DNA from: a virus | Taxonomy: Duplodnaviria; Caudoviricetes | DNA length: 30,733 nt | Reading direction: 5' to 3' (one strand) | Virus record (IMG/VR): IMGVR_UViG_3300032076_000035 | Location: 1 to 30,733 of that record | Shown: positions 3,361 to 30,717 of the stretch, piece by piece | Numbering within the stretch: position 1 is the first letter of the stretch | Layout: every line of letters starts with the position of its first letter | The notes under the pieces: model-generated | Seen by the model: the letters and a program-made list of their open reading frames with translations, nothing else | The model's database searches: none | Told to the model about the DNA's origin: nothing | Position numbers and translations under genes: made by a program

Positions 3361-4041
3361 ATGAGTAATCCAATTACTGCTGGCTTAGACGATGCAGAGC
3401 AAGCCACGATTCGTCGTGCTGCCAGACATGCAATAGGTGAAGAGCTTGAACGTAGAGATATAGGCGCAGAAACTAAAGCTGCAGCTGAACCAGAAGAACC
3501 TCCATTCAAGCCAGAAATGGCACCAGTCAATCCCTACGCACCTACTGGTTGGCGGAAAAAGCAAAGAACTGAGTTTGACGTTACGCTTCCTAGTGGACAA
3601 CTTTGTCGAGTGCTTCGTCTTGAGCGTGAGGATCTGTTTAGACTCAATCTGATGAGTTATTTGGATACATTCACGCCTATGCTGATGGAAGATTCAATCA
3701 GCACTGAAGAGCGTAATAGACGTATGCAAGAAACCATGACGAAACACCCTGATTCAATTGCGAATATGTTTATGGCAATTGATGAAGTAGTTATGGCTGC
3801 TACTATTAGACCGCGTGTAACTAATGACGAAAAGAAAGTTGATTACGGCGGTCCTCAAGACTGGGGGAATCCTCAATTTATCGCTACTGCTTATATTGAA
3901 GATATAAGCATGGAAGATCGTATGGCTATTTTTGCTTCAGCCTTCGGGCGGTCGATGGACGACTTGAAAAGTATTTGGAATGAAGCGGGAAGCGTGGCAA
4001 GCGTGGCAGATGGCCCAAGCGTACAACCAACCGCCGAGTGA
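3361..4041 (+). CDS. Tail assembly chaperone (G-like)
   Basis: GGAGG SD; lies between the major tail and tape measure genes; VTLPSGQLCRV and YIEDISMEDRMAIF motifs. Confidence 0.8.
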   Translation: MSNPITAGLDDAEQATIRRAARHAIGEELERRDIGAETKAAAEPEEPPFKPEMAPVNPYAPTGWRKKQRTEFDVTLPSGQLCRVLRLEREDLFRLNLMSYLDTFTPMLMEDSISTEERNRRMQETMTKHPDSIANMFMAIDEVVMAATIRPRVTNDEKKVDYGGPQDWGNPQFIATAYIEDISMEDRMAIFASAFGRSMDDLKSIWNEAGSVASVADGPSVQPTAE

Positions 4042-4306
4042 AATTTTTGGGGTTAAAGGTGCTGCAGGACTATTTTTCGACAAAGGGATATTCACTTTTG
4101 GTCGATATGTAGAAGGGGTTGTTGAGCATGCTGGTCAAGATGCGCTCAACGCGAGTTTTGCGAGGTCAGCACAACAACGCGCCTTTGCTCGGTGTATGGG
4201 CGATGATATGGAGAAATCTACAGCAGGCTTCGCTGATCCATTCTCTAGTGGGATGCATGCTTCCGAGACAGAAGACGGCGATGAGATTCTCAGAAGCGGC
4301 TACTAA
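3968..4306 (+). CDS. Tail assembly chaperone, second ORF (T-like; probably expressed by a +1/-2 frameshift fusion, alternatively from ATG 3980)
   Basis: The +1 frame is open from 3968 (after TGA 3965-3967). EAWQAWQMAQAYNQPPSEIFGV...FFDKGIFTFG is T-like. ATG 3980 lacks a well-spaced SD. Stop overlaps the tape measure ATG. Confidence 0.7.
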   Translation, partial: KVFGMKREAWQAWQMAQAYNQPPSEIFGVKGAAGLFFDKGIFTFGRYVEGVVEHAGQDALNASFARSAQQRAFARCMGDDMEKSTAGFADPFSSGMHASETEDGDEILRSGY

Positions 4307-7300
4307 TGCCTGATTATAATTTGGGTAGAGCGCATGGTGAGATTGAAATCACCGCCGATACTCGTGGTGCCCAAGAGGCTCAAGCTGCAATGGCTTCAAC
4401 AAAAGCTGAAGCTGCTGCCCTTGATGCTGAAATGGGCAAAGTTAATACTCAATTTGATAAAAATCGACAAAGTAGTATTCTTAGCGCTGAAGCTCTAGTT
4501 AGACAACGCGGTCAAGTTGAAGAACTTCGCAAAACATACGAACGATATAATCAAGATTACGAACGTGCATCCACACGAAAACTAGATACTGAACGTAAGT
4601 TACAAGAAGCTAGACGTAGAGAACAAACAGAAGGTGAAACGTTATTACGTTTAGGACGTGATGTCCAGCGATCTAGAGAAAATGAACAACGTTTGTTATT
4701 GCGCTCACAAGAGGCTTATGAACGTTACCAGACTAGATTATCTGCTTTACGTCTTGAAGTTGAAAGGTTTAATACTGCTCATATAGCTGCCACTACTGGT
4801 TTTTCTAATATGCGTAACGAAGCAGAAAAAGCAGGCCAAGCATTAGAAAAACTGTCAGATAAACTTACTGGTATTGCCAAAGTTATGACCAATATCGGTG
4901 TTTATGGCCTATTTGGGACAGGCGCGGCGGGGGCCTTGGGTATTATGGGTGGTGGTGGGCTACACGAGCTCACTATAGTTGCTGGTGCAGCTCTTGAAGT
5001 TATGAAAGATTTTGCTGGTGCTATGCTTTTACTTCCTGCCGGCATTAGTGCTGCAGCTGTTTCTTTGGGTACATTAGCTGCTGGATTTCATGGTGTTGCA
5101 CAAGCTATAGGTTCAATTGGTGATCCAGCTAAGTTTATTGAATCTTTGCGTGAATTATCGCCTGCAGCTAGAGAATTTGTAATTTCTATAGAGCGGTTCT
5201 CATATGCCATTCGTGGCGCTCGTGAGATGGTTCAGGAATCATTATTTCAACCACTTATTGCCGATATTCAACCGCTGGTATATACATGGTTACCACTATT
5301 AATGCAAGCAGGCCAACGACTTGCTAGTGAATTTGGACAGTCTTTCCGTCAAGTATTTCAATTCTTATTACAACCTGAGACTCAAACTGCTTTTCAAACT
5401 TTTACTAACAATCTAGTACATGGTTTCCAGGCTGTTCGTGGAGCAATACAGCCATTCATGGAAATGATGAGGACTTTAACCACTGTTGGTTCACAGATAT
5501 TTGTTAGAATTGGACAAGCTATAGCTCATATAGCGAATGAGTTCAATAACTGGGTCCAAAACGCTGCACAAAGTGGTCGCCTTCTACAAATAATGAATCA
5601 AGTACTGGATGATTTTACTAGACTTGCTCATATTATACGTGATCTTGGTATCGGATTATCTAACTTTTTTGATATAGCTGAAAGAACAGGCGGTGGATTC
5701 CTCCAACAGTTAGAACGAATAGCTGCTACATTCAGACAGTGGACTGAAAGTGCTCGTGGTCAAGCTGGTATATTGAATTTCTTTAATTTACTAAATCAAT
5801 CTGCTGAAGAAGCAAGGCCCCTTATACATCTATTGGGCCAAGGAATTTCTATTATTGCTAGTACACTTGATAGGCTTGGTTTAGCTATTCAGCCTGGGCT
5901 TGTATCATTCTTTACCTCATTTGTTGAAGCGCTGCGAGTCCTTAGCCCTGCTGTTCAAGCAATGGCTCCAGCGCTTAATGAATTTTTAGCTGATTTTGGT
6001 AAAACATTATTACAAATAGTTCAAGAACTTGGACCAAGACTACCACAATTCTTCAAAGATTTCGCAGACGCTCTATCAGAGTTAATGTATTGGTTACCAG
6101 GAGTTGCACATTTCATTGGTGTATTATTTGGTCTTTTAAGCCCGCATGAAATAGAAGTTATACTTGGTTTAGTTGCTGCAATTAAACTTCTTAATATTGC
6201 TCTTGGCGTTATGGATGTATTGATGGATGCCAATCCAATTGGTATCGTCATTGTTGCTATTGGTTTACTTATTGCTGGTATTGTTCTTTTAGTTACTCAT
6301 TGGGATACAGTCAAGCAAAAGATTGGTGAAGTCACTGAAAAGTTTGGTGGACTTCACGGTCTGATTGATGATGTAAAGCGTGCTTGGGATAGTTTAACAA
6401 ATACAGTATCCAATTGGTGGAATATACTTACAAATGCTATCAGTAGTGGCTGGGATAGCTTGGTCGGAGCTTTTGTTGACCTTAAGAACAAAATAGTTCA
6501 CTGGTTTGATGATATAGATTTGCTACAAATTGGTAAGAATCTTATAAAAAGTCTGGCCGATGGTATATTAGCTGCAATCCCCACTACGTTGAAAGATGCA
6601 TTAAAAGCAGCTGCCAACTCAATAAAGAATTTTTGGAATACAGGTTCACCTGCCCAAGAAGGGCCATTACACGATACATCACCAGATCAGATGGGTGAAA
6701 ATCTATCGACGAATTATGCGTACGGAATCTCTAGCGGTACGGGCGCGGTTAGCGACGCATCGTCTCAGGTAGCGTCAGGGGCCGCGCGAGGGCTATCGGG
6801 GAGCGCGGCGGGAGGAGCCGGTGGCGCGCCCGGTGGGACTGGAGGCGGAACTTATACATCGGCAGGGAATGTAGGCATTTCCGGTAGAGGCCAAGTTAGC
6901 GGTTTTGACCAGTATATTGCTTTTATTACTTCTGATATGCAAGCATGGCTTAAGATAGCTCAAGATGGTTGGAGTCTGTTCCAAAACATTACAAAGATTG
7001 TAACTGATACAACTAGGGTCATAGCTGATCTTTGGAATCGTGGAGATAACCCACTCACGCGACCTGGTGAGTTGTACGGACCTCCATTACCTACTGGTCA
7101 AATACAAGTTCCAGGTGTTCCTGGTGCTGCTATTCCTGGTGTACCGCCAGATGCATGGGCTAAGAACTTACCGGGAGCACTTCCTGGTGCTCAGCAAGCA
7201 CCACCTGGTGTGCCATTAGTTGGACCTAGAGGAGTTCCTCTTGGTGGTGCACTTCCAGCGGCTCCGACTCCTGGTCAACCTGGATTTATTGGGCCTGTTG

Positions 7301-10300
7301 CACCTACACGACCACCTGCACCTGCTGCACCTGCTGCACCTGCTCCTGCTGCTCCAGCACAGCCTGCTGGACCTGCCGGCGCTCCGGCGCAGTTGGCTCC
7401 TGGGGGCGGGTTAAATGCTAGACAGGCAGATATTGCTAATAGAATTATCAATGAAGGTCGTAGACGTGGTGCTAGTAATGATCAGATTAATGCTGCTCTT
7501 GCTATTGCAGCCGATGAAAGTAATCTCGGTGCAAATGATCAATTCAACACTAGTGGTGGTAATGCTAGCGTAGGTGGAGTTGGTGGGATATATCAGCAGG
7601 CTCCTGGCGCTGGTTGGGGCACTAAAGAACAGGTAATGGATCCTAATTACTCCATACCTAAATTCTGGGATGCTTTCTCGAAACATCCACAATATGCTAG
7701 CAATCCAATGGTTGCTGCGGTTCTTACTCAGAATCCACAAATTGGTCCCAGTCCTCAAGGAACAGAATATTGGAATGCTGTACAACGAGCTACGCAGCAA
7801 GGACCATATAGGACTGCTGCTGCCGGTGTTCCCGCTGCCGGAGGAGTTGCACCCACTGATGTAACTCAGCCTCAACCTATTGGACCAATTCCAGGAGCTG
7901 CAGTCAATCCAGCTACTCAAGCGAGATTCCCGCTTCAAGGTACCACTACATTTGCTATGGAACAAGCTCGTAAAGCAGGAACGTTTACAAATCCACCACT
8001 TTACCCGCCAGGGCTAGATACTGGTGGGTATGCTGGTCCTGGTGTTGGGAAGTTACCTCCTTGGGTAGTTCAATTTGCTGCTCGATTTGGACTTGTACCA
8101 AGTACTTATGCGGATGGTGGAACACTTCATCAATCTGGTTATGCTTTTGATTTCGCTGCTCCTGCAGGAACTGATCCTGAAGTAGCTGCTCAGCGAATGG
8201 ATGCTTTTTCAGAGTTTATCAAGACAGTTCTTCCAGGTCAAACGATGGAGCTCATCCACCAGAATGAGCGTACAGGTCAACAGTGGCGGATAGCCGGTGG
8301 TCAAGTAGTCGGACCTGGTACTCAGTATCAAAATTATTTTGATGCTGAGATGGGCGAACACGGCGATTATGGTACAGGCCCACACGTTCACTGGGCAACA
8401 GATGTTCCGCCAATACTTCCTGGGATTACTGCTCCACTTCCGGCTCCTGCGCCTCCTGCTCCACCGCAAGAAATAGCGCCAATTCCTAGATTGCCTGCTG
8501 GCCCTAGAGATAGATTATCTGGTTTACGTTTGCCTGGGGCATTAGGTGGTTGGGGACCAATTGGGATAGGTGCTGGCCTGATTGGCGCTGGTGGTCTCGG
8601 TTTGGCTCGTGCAGCTGGTGGGATGCGTACTAGATATTTACAAGCAACATACGATATGTATGATGCGCGTGCGAAGCTTGATGTTATTCGGAGTTTGTCT
8701 CCTGAAGAAATTGCACAGGCTGGTCTTACTAATCCTGATATGATCACCTTTACTGAAGGTGAACAACAAGCACTTCGCGGTCTTAACATTGATTTAAGTG
8801 GCCCACCACCTGGAGAAGTTCCCGCACCAGAAGCTGCTAGTGTAGTTGGCGATGTAGGTGCTGAAGCGGCTACTGGAAGTAGACTTCTTAGAGGACTTGG
8901 TGTTGCCGGTCGAGTTGCCGGCCCTGCTTTGACTGCTGTTGCTGCATTGCCATGGGCTTGGGGTGCTGCCCAGAATATAGCTGGTCCACGACCTGCTCGT
9001 GTTCAGGGTGTTGCAGGTATTGATGATATACTTTCTGGTAGACTGGGTGTCGGCAATATATTGACTGGTCCAATTACTGGACCATTAACTGCTGATGATA
9101 GAGCAAGACTTGCTGCACAAGGAGCTGGTCCTCCTCCTATAACTCCGACTGATTTAAGCAAGATTCCACAATCTACGATAGATTTAGCTGCACGTTCTGG
9201 TCATCCAATTCCTGGAACTACACCATCTTATGCTGCAGGCGGCGCTCCAGGTATACCAATTACGCCACAAAATCTTCCTGGTCTATTAGGATTGCCTGGG
9301 GCACCACCTTCAAATATTCCGCAGCAGCCTGCTGGGCCAAGACCACCACTTCCTGGTTATAATTTCTATAAAGATTGGTATGGTGCTGGCCAGCCATCTA
9401 CTCCTGTAACTGTTACTAATCCACAAGAATTTCCTGGTGGACAGAGAAGTCCAGGTGGACCTACGCCCCCAGCGGCAGGCCCTGGTCGTGTACCACGACC
9501 CGGTGAACCAGGATTTATTGGTCCTGTTGCAAATGCACCTGCGCAGATACAAGGCGATACACACCAAGGAACTGGCGCACCTCCTGGGCCTGCTGACTAT
9601 AAAGGTTGGTATGGTGGAACGCAGAACGCAGTAGGTAATTTTGATACTCGTTCGCCTATGCAGCAATTTACAGACTCTATGTCTGGTGTTGGTAAAATTA
9701 TTGGTGATGCATTTAAGATATTTGAAGATGTCATTGATAATATTCGTGCGGCCGCAGCAATTGGCGATACGTTAGTTCGTGGCGTTGAGAATACAGAAGA
9801 TATTGTTCATGTTATTCAAAATGTTCAGTCGTTTATAAAGACTGCTGGCGATATTGCTCAGACTGTTGGGGATACAGCTGGCGCTATTGCCCAAATGATA
9901 CCATCTACTGGTGGCGCTGACTTTGGTGGATCGGCAGCTGCTCAATCAGCATTACAAGCAGTTAGTGCTATAGCTAGTATAGTTTCAGCTGCAATTCAAG
10001 CTACGAATGAAGCTATTTCACTTGGCATCGAAGTTTATCATGAAGTTGGTAAGTACGCAGGCTTTATATTTGGCTCTGTACTTGGTGGAGCATTGGGCAC
10101 GCTTGGCGGGAATGTCAGGATGTTGCTAAATACCAGAACAGGTGAAATTTATACTTATAGCGAAGATAATCCATTAAACAAGAATACAATACGCACTCCA
10201 TTTGCTGGAGCTTATACTCAACCGCCAGCGATTCAAAATCAGAATAATCAGATGAACATATACACTGGACCTGGGCAGTCACCTATGCAAATGATGCAGA

Positions 10301-10365
10301 ATACGATGTGGATGGTTAGTACTGGTGCTCCACAAGTTGCTTCAGTAGCAGCAGGTGGTGACTAA
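4306..10365 (+). CDS. Tape measure protein (2019 aa) with putative lysozyme-like and peptidase-like domains
   Basis: Longest ORF, following the chaperones. YNLGRAHGEIEI N-terminus, coiled-coil/amphipathic helical repeats, hydrophobic ANPIGIVIVAIGLLIAGIVLL segment, W-periodic repeats, GSPAQEGPL motif, then a Pro/Gly-rich region with catalytic-like domains. Confidence 0.95.
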   Translation: MPDYNLGRAHGEIEITADTRGAQEAQAAMASTKAEAAALDAEMGKVNTQFDKNRQSSILSAEALVRQRGQVEELRKTYERYNQDYERASTRKLDTERKLQEARRREQTEGETLLRLGRDVQRSRENEQRLLLRSQEAYERYQTRLSALRLEVERFNTAHIAATTGFSNMRNEAEKAGQALEKLSDKLTGIAKVMTNIGVYGLFGTGAAGALGIMGGGGLHELTIVAGAALEVMKDFAGAMLLLPAGISAAAVSLGTLAAGFHGVAQAIGSIGDPAKFIESLRELSPAAREFVISIERFSYAIRGAREMVQESLFQPLIADIQPLVYTWLPLLMQAGQRLASEFGQSFRQVFQFLLQPETQTAFQTFTNNLVHGFQAVRGAIQPFMEMMRTLTTVGSQIFVRIGQAIAHIANEFNNWVQNAAQSGRLLQIMNQVLDDFTRLAHIIRDLGIGLSNFFDIAERTGGGFLQQLERIAATFRQWTESARGQAGILNFFNLLNQSAEEARPLIHLLGQGISIIASTLDRLGLAIQPGLVSFFTSFVEALRVLSPAVQAMAPALNEFLADFGKTLLQIVQELGPRLPQFFKDFADALSELMYWLPGVAHFIGVLFGLLSPHEIEVILGLVAAIKLLNIALGVMDVLMDANPIGIVIVAIGLLIAGIVLLVTHWDTVKQKIGEVTEKFGGLHGLIDDVKRAWDSLTNTVSNWWNILTNAISSGWDSLVGAFVDLKNKIVHWFDDIDLLQIGKNLIKSLADGILAAIPTTLKDALKAAANSIKNFWNTGSPAQEGPLHDTSPDQMGENLSTNYAYGISSGTGAVSDASSQVASGAARGLSGSAAGGAGGAPGGTGGGTYTSAGNVGISGRGQVSGFDQYIAFITSDMQAWLKIAQDGWSLFQNITKIVTDTTRVIADLWNRGDNPLTRPGELYGPPLPTGQIQVPGVPGAAIPGVPPDAWAKNLPGALPGAQQAPPGVPLVGPRGVPLGGALPAAPTPGQPGFIGPVAPTRPPAPAAPAAPAPAAPAQPAGPAGAPAQLAPGGGLNARQADIANRIINEGRRRGASNDQINAALAIAADESNLGANDQFNTSGGNASVGGVGGIYQQAPGAGWGTKEQVMDPNYSIPKFWDAFSKHPQYASNPMVAAVLTQNPQIGPSPQGTEYWNAVQRATQQGPYRTAAAGVPAAGGVAPTDVTQPQPIGPIPGAAVNPATQARFPLQGTTTFAMEQARKAGTFTNPPLYPPGLDTGGYAGPGVGKLPPWVVQFAARFGLVPSTYADGGTLHQSGYAFDFAAPAGTDPEVAAQRMDAFSEFIKTVLPGQTMELIHQNERTGQQWRIAGGQVVGPGTQYQNYFDAEMGEHGDYGTGPHVHWATDVPPILPGITAPLPAPAPPAPPQEIAPIPRLPAGPRDRLSGLRLPGALGGWGPIGIGAGLIGAGGLGLARAAGGMRTRYLQATYDMYDARAKLDVIRSLSPEEIAQAGLTNPDMITFTEGEQQALRGLNIDLSGPPPGEVPAPEAASVVGDVGAEAATGSRLLRGLGVAGRVAGPALTAVAALPWAWGAAQNIAGPRPARVQGVAGIDDILSGRLGVGNILTGPITGPLTADDRARLAAQGAGPPPITPTDLSKIPQSTIDLAARSGHPIPGTTPSYAAGGAPGIPITPQNLPGLLGLPGAPPSNIPQQPAGPRPPLPGYNFYKDWYGAGQPSTPVTVTNPQEFPGGQRSPGGPTPPAAGPGRVPRPGEPGFIGPVANAPAQIQGDTHQGTGAPPGPADYKGWYGGTQNAVGNFDTRSPMQQFTDSMSGVGKIIGDAFKIFEDVIDNIRAAAAIGDTLVRGVENTEDIVHVIQNVQSFIKTAGDIAQTVGDTAGAIAQMIPSTGGADFGGSAAAQSALQAVSAIASIVSAAIQATNEAISLGIEVYHEVGKYAGFIFGSVLGGALGTLGGNVRMLLNTRTGEIYTYSEDNPLNKNTIRTPFAGAYTQPPAIQNQNNQMNIYTGPGQSPMQMMQNTMWMVSTGAPQVASVAAGGD

Positions 10366-21060: not shown

Positions 21061-21082
21061 TCGAATGGAGTATAATAAAGGT

Positions 21083-21823
21083 ATGATATTCCGGTTTGTT
21101 ATTGGCTTAGGTATATTAATGATTACTTATCAAATGCCAAATGCCAACGCCCAACCGATACCAATCCCGGTACCAGTTCCAGCCCCTGGTGGTGGGCCAG
21201 CCATTGCGGTAACACTGCCCGCGCCTGAAGGAAACGTCATTAGCGGAATTGCTGGTGGAGTTGCCGCCGGAGGAATCAGCGTTAATGCTCCATCATTAGC
21301 CCCGGCAACTGCCGGTCTATTCCTTTGCCCCGGTGTCGGTAAAGCGGCTGGTTCAATCGGCGCTGGTGGTGGTTACTGTGACTTTGACTTTGAGCCTGTG
21401 ATACTCACTGCAACCACGATGGGCTTACGACATATTCACTGTGAATGGGGTGGCTTTACACCATTCGTTGATGTTTGGAACTGTTGGCGTGTTTGGCCAG
21501 GTCAGCCAGACCACCCACAGTTGCCAGACCCAGATATCGTTCCAGACGGTTGGGGTGTGCCTTGGGCGATCAATGGTCCGACACCTAACGACCAGTGGCC
21601 TCCACCAGGTTTAGCTCCAGCAGGTCAGGTCGGTCCACCGCCTCAACCTGCACCACAGGTATTTGGTGCACCAGAACCTCTACAACCTGGACCGCCTGGT
21701 CTGCCTAATGCTCCACCAGGCCCGCAGCCAAATGAATCGGTACCAGTTCCATTTGGCGAACCGTTAGCGCCACCACCTGGACCGTTTAATCAACCGCTTC
21801 CACCTGAGGCACCGCCATCATGA
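21083..21823 (+). CDS. Putative exported Pro-rich protein with signal peptide and 4-Cys core
   Basis: MIFRFVIGLGILMITYQMPNANA|QP gives a basic residue, hydrophobic h-region and A-x-A site. Core CPGVG..GGGYCDFDF..HIHCEWGG..WNCWRVWP; long Pro-rich tail. Alternative start 21065. Confidence 0.65.
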   Translation: MIFRFVIGLGILMITYQMPNANAQPIPIPVPVPAPGGGPAIAVTLPAPEGNVISGIAGGVAAGGISVNAPSLAPATAGLFLCPGVGKAAGSIGAGGGYCDFDFEPVILTATTMGLRHIHCEWGGFTPFVDVWNCWRVWPGQPDHPQLPDPDIVPDGWGVPWAINGPTPNDQWPPPGLAPAGQVGPPPQPAPQVFGAPEPLQPGPPGLPNAPPGPQPNESVPVPFGEPLAPPPGPFNQPLPPEAPPS

Positions 21824-23469
21824 CTGACCCGGTATCTGTATTAGCAGATGCGATGCAATGGAGCGTAACATATGAGCGTTATGCAGAGTTATATCCAGCT
21901 TTATCGCAGTCATTACGTGAATCAGAATGTACAACGTATGATCGCATTGCGATGTACTGTGCACAGACCGGCCATGAATCGGCTGGCTTGTACTACATGG
22001 AAGAACAGGATTGGAATGGCGATAACTATGCGTATTTGGAAGGTCGATGTGATGACCTTGGTAACTGCTCTCCTGGTGATGGCGCTAAGTACCACGGGCG
22101 TGGTCCCATTCAAGTAACTGGGAAGTACAATTATACAGAATGTAGTCAATGGGCATTTGACGAAGGGCTAGCTCCGTCACCGACATTTTTTGTTGATATA
22201 CCAGAAGAACTAGCACAAGATGATAACGGTTTCCACGGTGTAACATGGTACTGGACTACGCAACGTCCAATGAATGATGCCGCAGATGCTCATGATATTT
22301 ACTTAGCGACTTACTATATCAATGGAGGGTATAACGGCATAGAAGATCGTGAACAACGATACAATCACTGTATGTCGATGGGCGATTTATTGCTAGTATT
22401 GTTACAACCGAAGGATGAGAGGCCACTCGTGGGTGAGAGAGTTTTATCATACAACCCTGATATCATTCCCCAAGAAACTGGCTATTGGTGCGGGCCAGCA
22501 AGCGCCCAGATGTGCTTAGATATGCGCGGCATTTACGAAAGCGAACAGACACTCGCTAACGAGATGGGCACAGACGATGGCGGGACTGATTACGTAGCAT
22601 TGATCGAGCAGTCATTGGATCCACGATTACCAGAAGCAAATTACTCTAGCCACGACGCTCCGCATGATCCACCGAGCGCACCCGAAAAGGAAGCACTTTG
22701 GGACGCTTTGAAACGCAGCATCGACAACGGGTATGGCGTTGTTATGAACTGGGTTGCGCCACCAGCTAATTATCCAATAGGTATCAAAGGATCACCAAAT
22801 CCTAGTTACGGTGGCGGGACAGTATTTCATTATGTTAGTGCTGCCGGTTATGACGATAACCCGAGCCAGCGTGCCGTCTGGATCGTTGATTCTGGATTTC
22901 AGCCATGGCATTACTGGATTAGTTTTGATCAGTGTTGCACACTTATACCACCGAAAGCATTCTGTTATGCTAATCTGCCACATACAGGAGGAGGAGAACC
23001 AATGAGCGACGAAACTGTCTGGGTTTATGAGCAATTATGCGGACCGATAAACCCGGCTACTGGCTATGGTTCTGGTTGGCCGCAATTAGGTCAGAACGAA
23101 CATGGTCAAAACCTCTACTATGTGGATGCGTTGGGGCGCACGCTAGCAATGCTAGAAGGCGAACCTTTCACAGATATTCAGGCGCAGCCTACGGCAGCGC
23201 CGCGTAATCCGCTTGATTATTCCGCGCTTTCACTAGATCAATTAGCTGGTCCTGTCACTGCTGATGGCGAACGACATGGTTGGCCACAACTAGGAAATCG
23301 TAGCGTAACTGATACGCAGGCTCACATTAACTCGCTTTTGAGCGAAGATAGCGGTGAGCCCCCTTTACAGAAGGCCCACCAGGAACAGAGCAGCCTAGTG
23401 GGAAACCGGCTCTCCTCACGTTTGCGGGAACGTGGGCAGCGCCAGGAACCGGATTCCCCAGCGACGTAG
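21820..23469 (+). CDS. lysA: Lysin A (endolysin): GH19-like glycosidase + C39-like cysteine peptidase + GWPQLG cell-wall-binding region
   Basis: GH19 motifs AQTGHES, LGN..PGDGAKYHGRGPIQVTGKYNY, INGGYNG..DR. C39-like PQETGYWCGPAS...HYV..AGYD...IVDSGF. Two GWPQLG repeats. Confidence 0.93.
   Translation: MTDPVSVLADAMQWSVTYERYAELYPALSQSLRESECTTYDRIAMYCAQTGHESAGLYYMEEQDWNGDNYAYLEGRCDDLGNCSPGDGAKYHGRGPIQVTGKYNYTECSQWAFDEGLAPSPTFFVDIPEELAQDDNGFHGVTWYWTTQRPMNDAADAHDIYLATYYINGGYNGIEDREQRYNHCMSMGDLLLVLLQPKDERPLVGERVLSYNPDIIPQETGYWCGPASAQMCLDMRGIYESEQTLANEMGTDDGGTDYVALIEQSLDPRLPEANYSSHDAPHDPPSAPEKEALWDALKRSIDNGYGVVMNWVAPPANYPIGIKGSPNPSYGGGTVFHYVSAAGYDDNPSQRAVWIVDSGFQPWHYWISFDQCCTLIPPKAFCYANLPHTGGGEPMSDETVWVYEQLCGPINPATGYGSGWPQLGQNEHGQNLYYVDALGRTLAMLEGEPFTDIQAQPTAAPRNPLDYSALSLDQLAGPVTADGERHGWPQLGNRSVTDTQAHINSLLSEDSGEPPLQKAHQEQSSLVGNRLSSRLRERGQRQEPDSPAT
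23361..23413 (+). promoter_or_regulatory. Candidate programmed -1 ribosomal frameshift signal (C_CCU_UUA + 7-nt spacer + H-type pseudoknot)
   Basis: Heptamer 23361-23367 is phased X_XXY_YYZ in the lysin A frame. Stem 1 CCCACCAGG (23375-83)/CCTAGTGGG (23394-402), 8 of 9 pairs. Stem 2 AGAGC (23387-91)/GCTCT (23409-13). Confidence 0.7.
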
Positions 23470-24323
23470 CTCATGCCTGTTTGGATGTGGTGGACGAGGT
23501 GGCTGTCCAGGCCCCGTGGTCGTTTGGTCCAATCCCACCCGGCGCCCTCCGGTCCCCCAGCTACAAAGAGTCTATACAGATTGCCATTGACTGGTCAGTG
23601 GATTGGACGTTAAATAACTCTGATCGGCCAATTCTTGTAGGTGGCTATAGCCAAGGTGCTGAAGCTGCCAGCAGATTCAGAATGGAATTCGAGCCTGGCG
23701 GGAGGCTCGAACATTTACGGCAAAACTGGGTTTGCGGTTATGTATTTGGTAATCCAAGCCGGCATTATGAAACTACATACTTTGGTGGTCCAGGCACTCC
23801 ATGGGAAGGTATTGCGGTTTATCGGTTGCCTAATATTGGTTATGATTGGTGTGAGCTCATTGATCCTAGCGATCTTTACGGAACTTGCGCTCGCGGTCTT
23901 GTTGGTGAGATTGAGCGTGATGTCTATTCCTTGTGCACAGAAATGGAAATGCATTCAGGATGGCGTGAATTCGCTCAAACATTCGTAGCTAATTTGCTTG
24001 AAGTAGTACGCAATTTGGATGGAGATGCTTACGATGATCTGGAAGCTGGGGTTGCTCGTTATAACGTTGATCTTGAAGGCGCTACAGTGGCTCCAGTCGA
24101 GAAAGTTAAACCACTCAGCGATGGTCTCCTTTCTATACAAGGGATTGCTGCAGCTATCGCAGCTGCCATTGACGGATTAATATTTTTCTGTACATCTCCG
24201 CCGACAGCTAGTCATATAGAATATCATATCAGGGAAGCTTGGCCTGGAATGACTTATGTAAACTTGGGCATACAACATGTTCATGATTGGGTTAGGAATT
24301 ACAGTGAACGAACAAACGCGTGA
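23367..24323 (+). CDS. lysB: Lysin B (cutinase-like mycolylarabinogalactan esterase); frame lacks its own start before the first conserved strand
   Basis: G-Y-S-Q-G nucleophile motif, FGNP, D-LY and terminal HIEY His. N-terminal KPALLTFAGTW lies at 23403-23435, upstream of the first possible start (TTG 23481). Confidence 0.88.
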   Translation, partial: TEGPPGTEQPSGKPALLTFAGTWAAPGTGFPSDVAHACLDVVDEVAVQAPWSFGPIPPGALRSPSYKESIQIAIDWSVDWTLNNSDRPILVGGYSQGAEAASRFRMEFEPGGRLEHLRQNWVCGYVFGNPSRHYETTYFGGPGTPWEGIAVYRLPNIGYDWCELIDPSDLYGTCARGLVGEIERDVYSLCTEMEMHSGWREFAQTFVANLLEVVRNLDGDAYDDLEAGVARYNVDLEGATVAPVEKVKPLSDGLLSIQGIAAAIAAAIDGLIFFCTSPPTASHIEYHIREAWPGMTYVNLGIQHVHDWVRNYSERTNA

Positions 24324-24588
24324 TCCACGTAAGTTTTGGAGAGATGTTTTTGAACGAGTGATACGAGCATTTGCACAGGGTATGCTCGCTACATTAGTTA
24401 TTGGTTGGCGAACATTTGATAAGGGTGGATTACCTTGGCTTGATTCATTTTATGTTGGTCTAGGATGCGCAGTAATTGCATTATTGCTGTCAATGGCCGG
24501 TGGAAAGTTTGGCGATATCAATAGTGGTAGTTTTATACAAGTACTTGGGAAGAAGGAAAATGGCACCGACCAAGCACCCGCTGATTGA
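24304..24588 (+). CDS. Holin (r1t-like)
   Basis: AGGA SD + GTG 24304. KFWRDVFERVIRAFAQG...W...LLLSMA is the r1t holin signature; two hydrophobic segments; follows the lysins. Confidence 0.85.
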   Translation: MNEQTRDPRKFWRDVFERVIRAFAQGMLATLVIGWRTFDKGGLPWLDSFYVGLGCAVIALLLSMAGGKFGDINSGSFIQVLGKKENGTDQAPAD

Positions 24589-29772: not shown

Positions 29773-30717
29773 CTATTGACTTACTCTTGCCGCCGCAGGG
29801 TCCAACATCCATTCTTCATCATGAATAACCATATCATCGCCAACTACTGCAGGATTACCCCATTGACTGGTTCGTATCCCTTTACCAGCAAATTCCTGTA
29901 CACGATCGCGAATTGTACATGCCCTATCTACATCGCTGAGAAACTGGCATGAGCCTTTTTGGTAGCAGATTGGTTTGAAGATAGTACTTAGTTCATTGAA
30001 TTGCCATTCACTAGAATGTACTGGACCTAGCGATTCATCTGTTGCATATGTTTCTCCGCGGCCATATTCGCGTATGGCTTCCATTATTCGGAGCCAGACG
30101 AGTCTCCACTCGAATTGTGCTTGCGTACATAGTCGAAGCCCAGCATGTTCAAGCAGACCACGCAAGCTCGTGTTGTAATTGATCCGTGTAAGTAGGTTTG
30201 TTGGTAGCAAGCCCCTAGCATCTTCTGCTGGCATTCCAGAGTTGATGAGACTATTGTATGCATCGGTGATGTGTCTGACACAGTCATCCCAGACCACCTT
30301 CCAGTTTTCCTCTTGGGCCATTCGCTGGCCCTGGATGCTTGGCGGGTAGCCTACTGGAACATCTTCCTTGACAGCAAAACGTGTGGACTCTTGAGTGTAA
30401 GTTGCAGTTCGCTGTCTGACCATTTGGTGAGTAAAGCCCCTGGTGACTCCACTAATGAGGAAATGGAAATTGACAAATTCAAGTGGGGCAGCCAGAGCAT
30501 TCTTACGCACGTCGTCCAAATAGTGTCGTCGCTCCTCGTCACTAATGAGTGCGAGTGTCTCCACGTATTCGCCTTTGTACATTTTTGCAGCAGCTGCGAT
30601 CGTTCCCAAGGGGTCAGAATTACAACTGAGAAGCTGTACCCGTGGGCCAGATTCTTTGTCAATTGGCGCGGCTTTGAACATAGCCACGTCAGCCCATTTT
30701 TGAACATCTTTAGTCAT
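29773..30717 (-). CDS. thyX: Flavin-dependent thymidylate synthase ThyX
   Basis: PLEFVNFHFLISGVTRGFTHQMVRQRTATYTQESTRF, PAEDARGLLP, LR.LL..RLC..AQFEW; AAGGAGAGG SD. Confidence 0.92.
   Translation of the reverse strand: MTKDVQKWADVAMFKAAPIDKESGPRVQLLSCNSDPLGTIAAAAKMYKGEYVETLALISDEERRHYLDDVRKNALAAPLEFVNFHFLISGVTRGFTHQMVRQRTATYTQESTRFAVKEDVPVGYPPSIQGQRMAQEENWKVVWDDCVRHITDAYNSLINSGMPAEDARGLLPTNLLTRINYNTSLRGLLEHAGLRLCTQAQFEWRLVWLRIMEAIREYGRGETYATDESLGPVHSSEWQFNELSTIFKPICYQKGSCQFLSDVDRACTIRDRVQEFAGKGIRTSQWGNPAVVGDDMVIHDEEWMLDPAAARVSQ

What the first reader, a model, noticed from the sequence alone, without database searches (positions are those of the whole stretch)
23341..23481. Programmed -1 frameshift predicted to fuse lysin A to lysin B (slippery heptamer + pseudoknot)
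Seen: (1) The lysin B frame is closed by TAG 23349 and TGA 23355, then open with no ATG/GTG/TTG until 23481, yet it encodes a Pro/Gly linker (TEGPPGTEQPSG) and the apparent first cutinase strand KPALLTFAGTWAAPGTGFPSDVA. (2) Lysin A reads GAG CCC CCT TTA, a correctly phased X_XXY_YYZ heptamer (C CCT TTA, 23361-67), and lysin B is in the -1 frame. (3) Seven nt downstream is stem CCCACCAGG/CCTAGTGGG, whose loop AGAGC can pair with GCTCT at 23409-13 (H-type pseudoknot). (4) The 0-frame tail after the site looks like non-domain sequence. Inference: ribosomes make either LysA (549 aa) or a GH19-C39-CBD-LysB fusion (834 aa). With the internal starts, up to six isoforms could share one binding domain, fixing the peptidoglycan hydrolase to mycolate esterase ratio by recoding. 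I know of phage frameshifts in tail and capsid genes but not of one joining lysin A and lysin B.
Basis: partly seen in the sequence, partly recalled or inferred. Interest (0 to 1): 0.93.

Follow-up and report, generated by a model that had tools for sequence, protein, structure and literature searches.

The report
Frameshift joins two phage lysis enzymes
In this uncultured soil phage the gene for the outer-membrane-cutting enzyme (lysin B) has no start codon for its conserved first part, and a slippery sequence kept across dozens of related phage sequences likely makes ribosomes slip back one base, joining lysin B to the end of the cell-wall enzyme (lysin A); this use of frameshifting was in none of the papers I searched, and no protein has been examined yet.

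Summary
Lysin A (21820-23469) reads CCC CCT TTA at 23359-67, and start-less lysin B lies in the -1 frame. It is not an assembly error: contigs from 6 of 8 other runs laid bridge the site without a gap, and the other 2 do not cover it. Of 29 distinct related junctions, 28 keep CCC CCT TTN in phase and one has A AAT TTA. In 27 of them lysin B is in the -1 frame, over 15 linker lengths. The other 2 are in-frame fusions whose -1 frame stops three codons on (a dnaX-like reversal). The start-less lysin B segment is under selection in the -1 frame and forms the first predicted strand and helix. A 3' hairpin is plausible but weak, and the pseudoknot's second stem is missing in the closest relatives. 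A Shine-Dalgarno-like element just 5' of the site is new here. Best reading (0.85): programmed -1 ribosomal frameshifting gives lysin B the C-terminal repeat module of lysin A. The scan found the same thing before on other DNA (e1-7846457). Nothing has been tested experimentally.

The parts
21820..23469 (+). Lysin A ORF, 549 aa: GH19, C39-like peptidase, two GWPQLG-type repeats and a 0-frame tail
   Evidence: Pfam; PHROG endolysin hits
21931..22299 (+). GH19 domain (residues 38-160)
   Evidence: PF00182 E 8e-9
22429..22431 (+). Possible internal GTG start at the head of the C39 domain (would give 346 aa, or 631 aa after the shift)
   Evidence: relatives L002, L008, L017, L027, L043 have an SD-preceded start at the head of this domain; inferred
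22465..22893 (+). C39-like peptidase domain (residues 216-358)
   Evidence: PF13529 E 4e-13
23002..23358 (+). SD-preceded internal ATG 23002 and the two-repeat C-terminal module, a presumed wall-binding domain (would give 155 aa, or 440 aa after the shift)
   Evidence: The same repeat ends lysin A of phage LeBron and four unrelated endolysins. No Pfam, PHROG or Atlas hit, so the binding role is inferred from position
23353..23358 (+). SD-like element GGTGAG directly 5' of the shift site; it contains the -1 frame stop TGA 23355
   Evidence: anti-SD pairing in the top 10% of upstream positions in 25 of 29 junctions
23359..23367 (+). Shift site CCC CCT TTA; heptamer C CCT TTA at 23361-67
   Evidence: TTT in 29/29, CCC CCT in 28/29, last base A 12, C 16, T 1, G 0
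23375..23402 (+). Predicted hairpin 7 nt downstream (possible 3' stimulator; weak)
23387..23413 (+). Proposed pseudoknot stem 2 (AGAGC/GCTCT): not supported
23364..23480 (+). Start-less N-terminal segment of lysin B (-1 frame): Pro/Gly linker, first strand and first helix
   Evidence: selection; model E16-20 and H30-38 with pLDDT 89-98 over residues 11-40
23358..24323 (+). Lysin B open frame (-1 relative to lysin A); GYSQG at 23643-57
   Evidence: top Foldseek hit is D29 lysin B 3hc7, E 4.6e-8
23368..23469 (+). 0-frame tail of lysin A, not under selection
24277..24588 (+). Holin
   Evidence: PF16945; phrog_443

Best explanation
Lysin B of this phage has no start codon for its conserved first strand and helix, and is likely made by a programmed -1 ribosomal frameshift at C CCT TTA (23361-67) at the end of the lysin A frame. 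Ribosomes that stay in frame would end lysin A at 23469. Those that slip would add the esterase to lysin A's C-terminal repeat module, giving 834 aa from ATG 21820 or 440 aa from the SD-preceded internal ATG 23002. SHOWN: the layout, the absence of an indel, conservation of the phased heptamer and of the -1 offset, selection in the -1 frame, the reversed layout, and the LysB fold (predicted model). INFERRED: that the slip is ribosomal tandem slippage; that an SD-like 5' element, a Pro-Pro pause and a simple 3' hairpin stimulate it; that the repeat binds the wall; and that the purpose is to tether a set, smaller amount of esterase to the binding module.
For: Site conservation: 28 of 29 distinct junctions have CCC CCT TTN in the lysin A phase and one (L055) has a different valid heptamer, A AAT TTA. 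These codons are rare in many of the genomes: CCT is 1-9% of Pro codons and TTA 1-4% of Leu codons in the GC3>0.8 loci that have them at the site. Control prolines nearby vary freely. Offset: 27 of 29 are -1, over 15 linker lengths of 35-95 nt, all 2 mod 3. Reversal: L006 and L007 are in-frame fusions that keep the site and an SD-like element, with TAA or TGA three codons into the -1 frame, against 3-8 stops per 300 codons in that frame. Loss when fused: in-frame L074 has CCA CCG TTC at the same place. Selection at 23406-23480 against 26 relatives: 348 synonymous and 90 non-synonymous codon differences in the -1 frame, 19 and 399 in the 0 frame. Starting at TTG 23481 would delete model elements E16-20 and H30-38. 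22 of 27 -1 junctions, the window among them, have no ATG/GTG/TTG between the site and the first strand. In E. coli assays C_CC.U_UU.A exceeded 0.10% without stimulators and C_CC.U_UU.C was called high-level (PMC4066793, passages). In the LysB tree the frameshift and in-frame-fusion forms share one 100/100 clade, and the 10 separately started LysBs lie outside it.
Against: No RNA, ribosome or protein data. The 29 junctions are not independent (about ten form a tight cluster) and most come from a few soil campaigns. The 3' structure is no stronger than synonymous shuffles (mean z +0.64; 11 of 29 below 0), and the pseudoknot fails. The SD-like element ends only 2-5 nt before the heptamer, short of the 9-14 nt reported for -1 shifts (PMC5009743, passage). 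Five junctions (L008, L017, L028, L029, L055) have a GTG or TTG within 4 codons of the first strand, and in L017 and L055 it overlaps the lysin A stop as TTGA. So the one A AAT TTA case could instead be coupled re-initiation. A few 52-57%-identical database proteins (P0048, P0056, P0060, P0062) begin with their own short Met-started N-terminus. The window's TTA version is not among the most efficient E. coli motifs (H_HH.U_UU.Y), and host tRNAs are unknown.
Confidence: 0.85

Rival explanations
1. Same fusion, other direction: a forward +2 hop of peptidyl-tRNA-Pro along the C5 run (CCC 23359 to CCC 23361), pushed by the close SD-like element as in RF2-type forward shifts.
For: All five C's are kept in 28 of 29 junctions although tandem -1 slippage needs only three. 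The SD-like element lies 0-3 nt from the first CCC, near the 3 nt reported for +1 shifts (PMC5009743).
Against: It does not explain TTT in 29/29: a first Phe codon could be TTC, which dominates in the GC-rich genomes. L055 lost the C run but kept an X XXY YYZ pattern. The extra CC is explained by a conserved Pro in the preceding codon (29/29).
Confidence: 0.05
2. Transcriptional slippage adds one base in C5T3, and standard translation of those mRNAs yields the fusion.
For: Context-dependent polymerase realignment at a T5C5 run is known (PMC5009743, passage). The run is nearly invariant.
Against: The runs are short (C5, T3), and the known T5C5 case removes a base rather than adding one. L055 swaps the run for a phased AAATTTA, and the codon phase fits X XXY YYZ in all 29.
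Confidence: 0.04
3. Lysin B is translated separately, from TTG 23481/GTG 23487, from a non-canonical codon positioned by the SD-like element (such as the TTT), or by coupled re-initiation.
For: Cultured phages use separate starts (LeBron TAGTG overlap; CELFI). All 12 genome loci found with the first-strand pattern have their own start 21 codons upstream. A TTG overlaps the lysin A stop in L017 and L055.
Against: The window has no cognate or near-cognate start before the first strand. The segment upstream of 23481 is under purifying selection. A start at TTT would be useless in L006 and L007, where that frame stops after three codons, and would not need the C run.
Confidence: 0.04
4. Assembly error, or a recently broken fusion gene.
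For: In-frame fusions of 771-852 aa with this LysB exist (11 of 12 hits), and the site is a homopolymer run.
Against: 6 runs bridge the site without gaps. 27 distinct junctions with LysBs 49-77% identical to the window's, where aligned, share the -1 offset, and the LysB frame stays intact and under selection.
Confidence: 0.01

Closest known systems
dnaX tau/gamma -1 frameshift, including the reversed layout (PMC5009743, passages)
   Same: One gene gives a short and a long product. Both layouts occur among relatives (long product by shifting, or by staying in frame with a stop just into the -1 frame). An SD-like element sits 5' of the site and a hairpin is likely 3'.
   Different: Phage lysis enzymes rather than a polymerase subunit; C_CCU_UUN rather than A_AAA_AAG; SD spacing shorter than 9-14 nt; efficiency unknown.
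Phage tail assembly chaperone G/GT frameshift
   Same: Programmed frameshift in tailed phages that fuses two overlapping frames. In SEA-PHAGES annotations 2397 of 2476 joined genes are these chaperones and 79 are hypothetical (PMC10885494, passage).
   Different: A lysis cassette rather than tail assembly; it joins two different hydrolases; I found no annotated lysin case in the passages seen.
Mycobacteriophage lysin A/lysin B cassettes (D29, Ms6, cluster L LeBron and CELFI)
   Same: Gene order lysA-lysB-holin; LysB cutinase fold and GYSQG. LeBron lysin A ends in the same GWPQLG repeat, with lysB in the -1 frame. Many LysBs carry an N-terminal binding domain (PMC6116114; PMC10888907).
   Different: Those LysBs have their own start codon and, in several, their own binding domain. 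Here lysin B has neither and would borrow lysin A's module. The best cultured match is 44% identical.
Ms6 lysA in-frame internal start (Lysin384/Lysin241; PMC3111421, passages)
   Same: An SD-preceded internal start gives a second, shorter lysin A product.
   Different: No frameshift and no lysin B fusion in Ms6.
RNA-phage coat/lysis frameshift as summarised in PMC10885494 (passage)
   Same: A frameshift tied to expression of a lysis gene.
   Different: There the shift ends coat synthesis early and brings the ribosome to the lysis start; it is not a fusion of two enzymes.

Membership tests
Programmed -1 ribosomal frameshift (tandem slippage) | X XXY YYZ heptamer in the 0-frame phase | tested here: met
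   C CCT TTA 23361-67; 29 of 29 junctions have one
Programmed -1 ribosomal frameshift (tandem slippage) | Downstream ORF in the -1 frame without its own start, under selection | tested here: met
   5 of 27 -1 junctions have a possible GTG/TTG near the first strand
Programmed -1 ribosomal frameshift (tandem slippage) | Nucleotide-level conservation of the site beyond coding need | tested here: met
   site lost in in-frame L074
Programmed -1 ribosomal frameshift (tandem slippage) | 3' stimulatory structure 5-9 nt downstream | tested here: inconclusive
   Hairpin in the top 10% of internal positions in 16 of 29, but not beyond synonymous shuffles; 1 compensatory pair in 3 sequences, reached by 146/500 shuffles
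Programmed -1 ribosomal frameshift (tandem slippage) | 5' SD stimulator 9-14 nt upstream | tested here: inconclusive
   SD-like pairing enriched in 25 of 29, but it ends 2-5 nt before the heptamer and overlaps Gly-Glu codons
Programmed -1 ribosomal frameshift (tandem slippage) | Measured shift and trans-frame product | not testable with these tools
   needs a reporter and mass spectrometry
H-type pseudoknot stimulator | Conserved loop-to-3' stem 2 | tested here: not met
   5 bp in the window arises by chance 5-15% of the time; 3 bp in L027 and L043; 3 of 29 reach 5 bp
Lysin B (mycolylarabinogalactan esterase) | Cutinase-like alpha/beta hydrolase fold | tested here: met
   model pLDDT 80; top hit 3hc7, then cutinases
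Lysin B (mycolylarabinogalactan esterase) | G-X-S-X-G with conserved Asp and His | tested here: met
   GYSQG, D170 and H284 invariant in 29 aligned sequences; assignment as the triad is inferred
Lysin B (mycolylarabinogalactan esterase) | Position after lysA in the lysis cassette | tested here: met
Lysin B (mycolylarabinogalactan esterase) | Esterase activity on mycolyl-arabinogalactan | not testable with these tools
   needs an assay
Cell-wall-binding domain (GWPQLG repeat) | Match to a known binding family, or shown binding | tested here: inconclusive
   No Pfam, PHROG or Atlas hit; C-terminal position in several endolysins

The most novel reading that the evidence does not exclude
A clade of soil actinophages runs lysis from one recoded gene. 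Internal starts and a -1 frameshift combine to make up to six enzymes sharing one wall-binding module, so the peptidoglycan hydrolase to mycolate esterase ratio is set by recoding. Lineages flip repeatedly between frameshift, reversed frameshift and permanent fusion, using a compact signal (close SD plus Pro-Pro pause) that departs from the known 9-14 nt SD rule.
Probability: 0.4. Interest if true: 0.88.

Novelty: new variant of a known kind. Interest (0 to 1): 0.76.

Why it matters
Annotated phage frameshifts are almost all in tail chaperone genes. This one would put recoding into the lysis cassette and join the two enzymes that breach the mycobacterial-type envelope. Lysin B dose matters: in D29, LysB aids release, but excess extracellular LysB blocks adsorption (PMC13463830, passages). 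A frameshift is a direct way to cap and tether it, and that is now testable with a roughly 130-nt cassette. Natural in-frame LysA-LysB fusions are also of interest as enzymes. In practice, gene callers truncate these lysin Bs: 43 of the 78 near-length database hits lack the first-strand motif, including the window's own 278-aa call; some may be contig fragments. Cloning the called gene would likely give an incomplete enzyme.

Tried and rejected
DNA search of cultured phages with 22900-23900: no match. Protein search: 1095 records, all under 60% identity, best 44%, so no cultured member of the clade was found. Genome scan with alignment A1: 132 stretches matched a pattern, none confirmed. A first-strand DNA pattern then found 12 genome loci, all with their own start and no shift site; L097 has an AAAAAAG in a Lys/Ala-rich tail but also its own ATG. 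No RNA holder was listed. Rfam scan of L001, L003, L006, L039, L046: one chance-level hit, no intron or RNA family. The pseudoknot was rejected. Synonymous-shuffle test of 3' folding: no excess. The sequence search of solved structures was weak (3hc7 E 0.062). The ESM Atlas gave no usable hit for the repeat. A search with P0004 for its DNA returned only the L085 contig, so the DNA of the in-frame fusions P0001, P0003-P0007 and P0009-P0011 was not seen; P0004 and P0007 have Pro-Leu at the junction and might keep a site. L011-L014 are unrelated endolysins ending in the repeat, with no lysB. A GTG in the +1 frame at 23354 followed by a +1 shift was considered and dropped: only about half of the junctions have that GTG. 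The VIA-align comparison was not obtained. No complex prediction was run. Literature: 7 searches listed no paper on a lysin A-lysin B frameshift, and the lysis-enzyme review PMC6116114 has 0 hits for 'frameshift' and 'fused'. Subscription journals are mostly not covered, I read no supplements, and only the first 300,000 of 449,034 characters of PMC5009743 are held.
Full report
SETTING. The window is a 30.7 kb virus record, estimated 44% complete, found in soil metagenomes. It has tail genes, a lysis cassette and a primase. Its lysins match mycobacteriophage proteins; the host is not known. Lysin A (21820-23469) has GH19 and C39-like domains, then two GWPQLG-type repeats. A holin follows lysin B.

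OBSERVATION. The coordinates given are right. Lysin A reads GAG CCC CCT TTA at 23356-67. Lysin B's frame is -1, closed by TAG 23349 and TGA 23355, and has no ATG/GTG/TTG until 23481. There is no near-cognate start before the first-strand Leu at 23415 either. The run is not an assembly error: 6 of 8 runs laid bridge it with 0 gaps, and the other 2 do not cover it. One of them, X13, carries 7 substitutions in its bridging contig and no gap. These runs are Logan contigs, not raw reads, and two are flagged as possible sources.

THE START-LESS SEGMENT IS REAL PROTEIN. A model from a 29-sequence alignment (pLDDT 80) matches D29 lysin B best (E 4.6e-8). Its first strand (16-20) and helix (30-38) lie upstream of TTG 23481, which is residue 40. 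Over 23406-23480, 26 relatives differ from the window by 348 synonymous and 90 non-synonymous codons in the -1 frame, against 19 and 399 in the lysin A frame. These are summed pairwise counts, not independent events.

RELATIVES. Scans gave 8 viral loci, 7 by a junction pattern (this pattern contains the site, so it is biased) and 40 metagenome loci. One search examined these 55 loci plus the window. Seven lacked the N-terminus on the contig. Forty-eight had CCCCCTTT within 150 nt upstream of the first strand, in 27 distinct junctions, and one (L055) did not. Duplicate loci L010 and L062-L069 were left out. An unbiased first-strand pattern gave 19 viral and 12 genome loci. Of the 19 viral loci, 11 were already known, L085 added a -1 junction with the site, L074 was an in-frame fusion, and 6 had separate starts. 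All 12 genome loci had separate starts. With L085 and L055 the set is 29 junctions: 27 with lysin B in the -1 frame and 2 in frame.

WHAT IS CONSERVED. TTT in 29/29, CCC CCT in 28/29, and a last base of A, C or T, never G. The amino acid there switches between Leu and Phe, while control Pro codons nearby vary. In GC-rich relatives the site uses codons that are otherwise rare. Site-to-strand distance takes 15 values from 35 to 95 nt, all 2 mod 3. L055 has A AAT TTA in the right phase, though a TTG overlapping the lysin A stop makes it ambiguous. L006 and L007 are in-frame fusions that keep the site and hit a -1 stop (TAA in one, TGA in the other) three codons on. This is the reversal described for dnaX (PMC5009743). 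In-frame L074 has lost the heptamer by synonymous change. A longer-protein search found 11 in-frame fusions among 12 hits. In a 48-row LysB tree (L027 left out as too short), all frameshift and fusion forms fall in one 100/100 clade apart from the 10 separately started LysBs, and the -1 state needs 4 changes. The root is a midpoint, and recombination could decouple LysB from its junction, so I claim no order of events.

STIMULATORS. L027 and L043 keep it with one compensatory pair and repair the mismatch, which is not above shuffles in three sequences. Across the set, a hairpin starting 3-10 nt after the site ranks in the top 10% of internal positions in 16 of 29 (12-17 background positions each). 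Folding is not better than synonymous shuffles of the Pro/Gly linker, so structure and linker composition cannot be separated. Stem 2 of the pseudoknot is not conserved. An SD-like element (GGTGAG or GGGGAG) sits right before the site and ranks in the top 10% in 25 of 29 (the anti-SD used is recalled, not from a call). All 14 Gly codons two places before the site are GGT, including in genomes where GGT is 2-17% of Gly codons. Its spacing is shorter than the 9-14 nt reported for -1 shifts, which keeps a forward +2 hop open as a minor rival. A Pro precedes the heptamer in 29/29, and tandem prolines can be slow to decode (PMC5009743); a pause is my inference. E. coli data rate C_CCU_UUA, C_CCU_UUC and C_CCU_UUU as shift-prone (PMC4066793).

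PRODUCTS. An SD-preceded start at the head of the repeat module occurs in 16 of 27 loci (no background control; 2 of the 11 without it have too little upstream frame). Ms6 gives a precedent for internal starts. In L003 a 188-codon ORF, HNH-like by my recognition and not by a family scan, separates lysin A from an SD-started 43-codon repeat carrying the site, and Rfam finds no intron. There the shift can only give repeat-LysB unless an unrecognised intron is spliced out; this rests on one contig. More distant LysBs carry their own N-terminal domain and Pro linker, as reported for several LysBs. I therefore infer that the shift mainly supplies lysin B with lysin A's C-terminal module, and that the 440-aa form may matter as much as the 834-aa form. 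The binding role of the repeat rests on its C-terminal position in other endolysins (general architecture in PMC3314691).

AGAINST AND LIMITS. There are no expression data. The junctions are related and come largely from a few soil projects. Five of 27 -1 junctions have a GTG/TTG near the first strand. Some 52-57% relatives have their own short N-terminus. The DNA of most in-frame fusions was not seen. No cultured phage of the clade was found.

LITERATURE AND PRIOR NOTES. Seven searches listed no report of a lysin A-lysin B frameshift. I saw passages only, no whole texts and no supplements, of PMC3111421, PMC13313380, PMC5009743, PMC4066793, PMC10888907, PMC10885494, PMC6116114, PMC13463830 and PMC3314691. 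The scan itself noted the same CCCUUUA LysA-LysB reading on another genome (e1-7846457) and related lysin frameshifts in other phages. These notes are not independent evidence; my reading was recorded before I saw them.

VERDICT. A real, conserved recoding signal, most likely a programmed -1 ribosomal frameshift (0.85). It is a new variant of a known mechanism in a context I did not find in print. The pseudoknot should be dropped. Interest 0.76.

Noticed in passing
window 3361-4041 and 3980-4306: The tail assembly chaperone pair (PHROG hits) overlaps with the second ORF in the +1 frame, open from TGA 3965 with an ATG at 3980. This is not the usual -1 layout; a +1/-2 shift or a separate start is possible.
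   Followed up: partly
L003 3259-3825; L006 about 4782-5453: HNH-like ORFs (label by my recognition) sit inside or next to the lysis cassette: between lysin A and the repeat mini-gene in L003, and right after the fusion in L006.
   Followed up: partly
L046, about 252 nt upstream of the site: An in-frame TAG interrupts lysin A inside the first repeat; single contig, so an error or a real break.
   Followed up: no
window 21065-21823: A 252-aa Pro-rich protein with a hydrophobic N-terminus and several Cys lies just before lysin A. It has no Pfam or PHROG hit, and similar ORFs lie near the cassette in L002, L004 and L008.
   Followed up: no
P0048, P0056, P0060, P0062: Related LysBs with a short Cys-containing N-terminal peptide (M-x-G-L-C-x-C-P) before the Pro linker, a fourth kind of LysB start.
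   Followed up: no
L017 and L055 junctions: A slippery heptamer and a TTG overlapping the lysin A stop (TTGA) coexist, so these could make both a fused and a free lysin B.
   Followed up: partly
window 4306-10365: The 2019-aa tape measure protein has an internal segment (about 1032-1175) matching an endolysin PHROG.
   Followed up: no
window 29773-30717 (-): Thymidylate synthase-like gene, possibly for DNA base modification.
   Followed up: no
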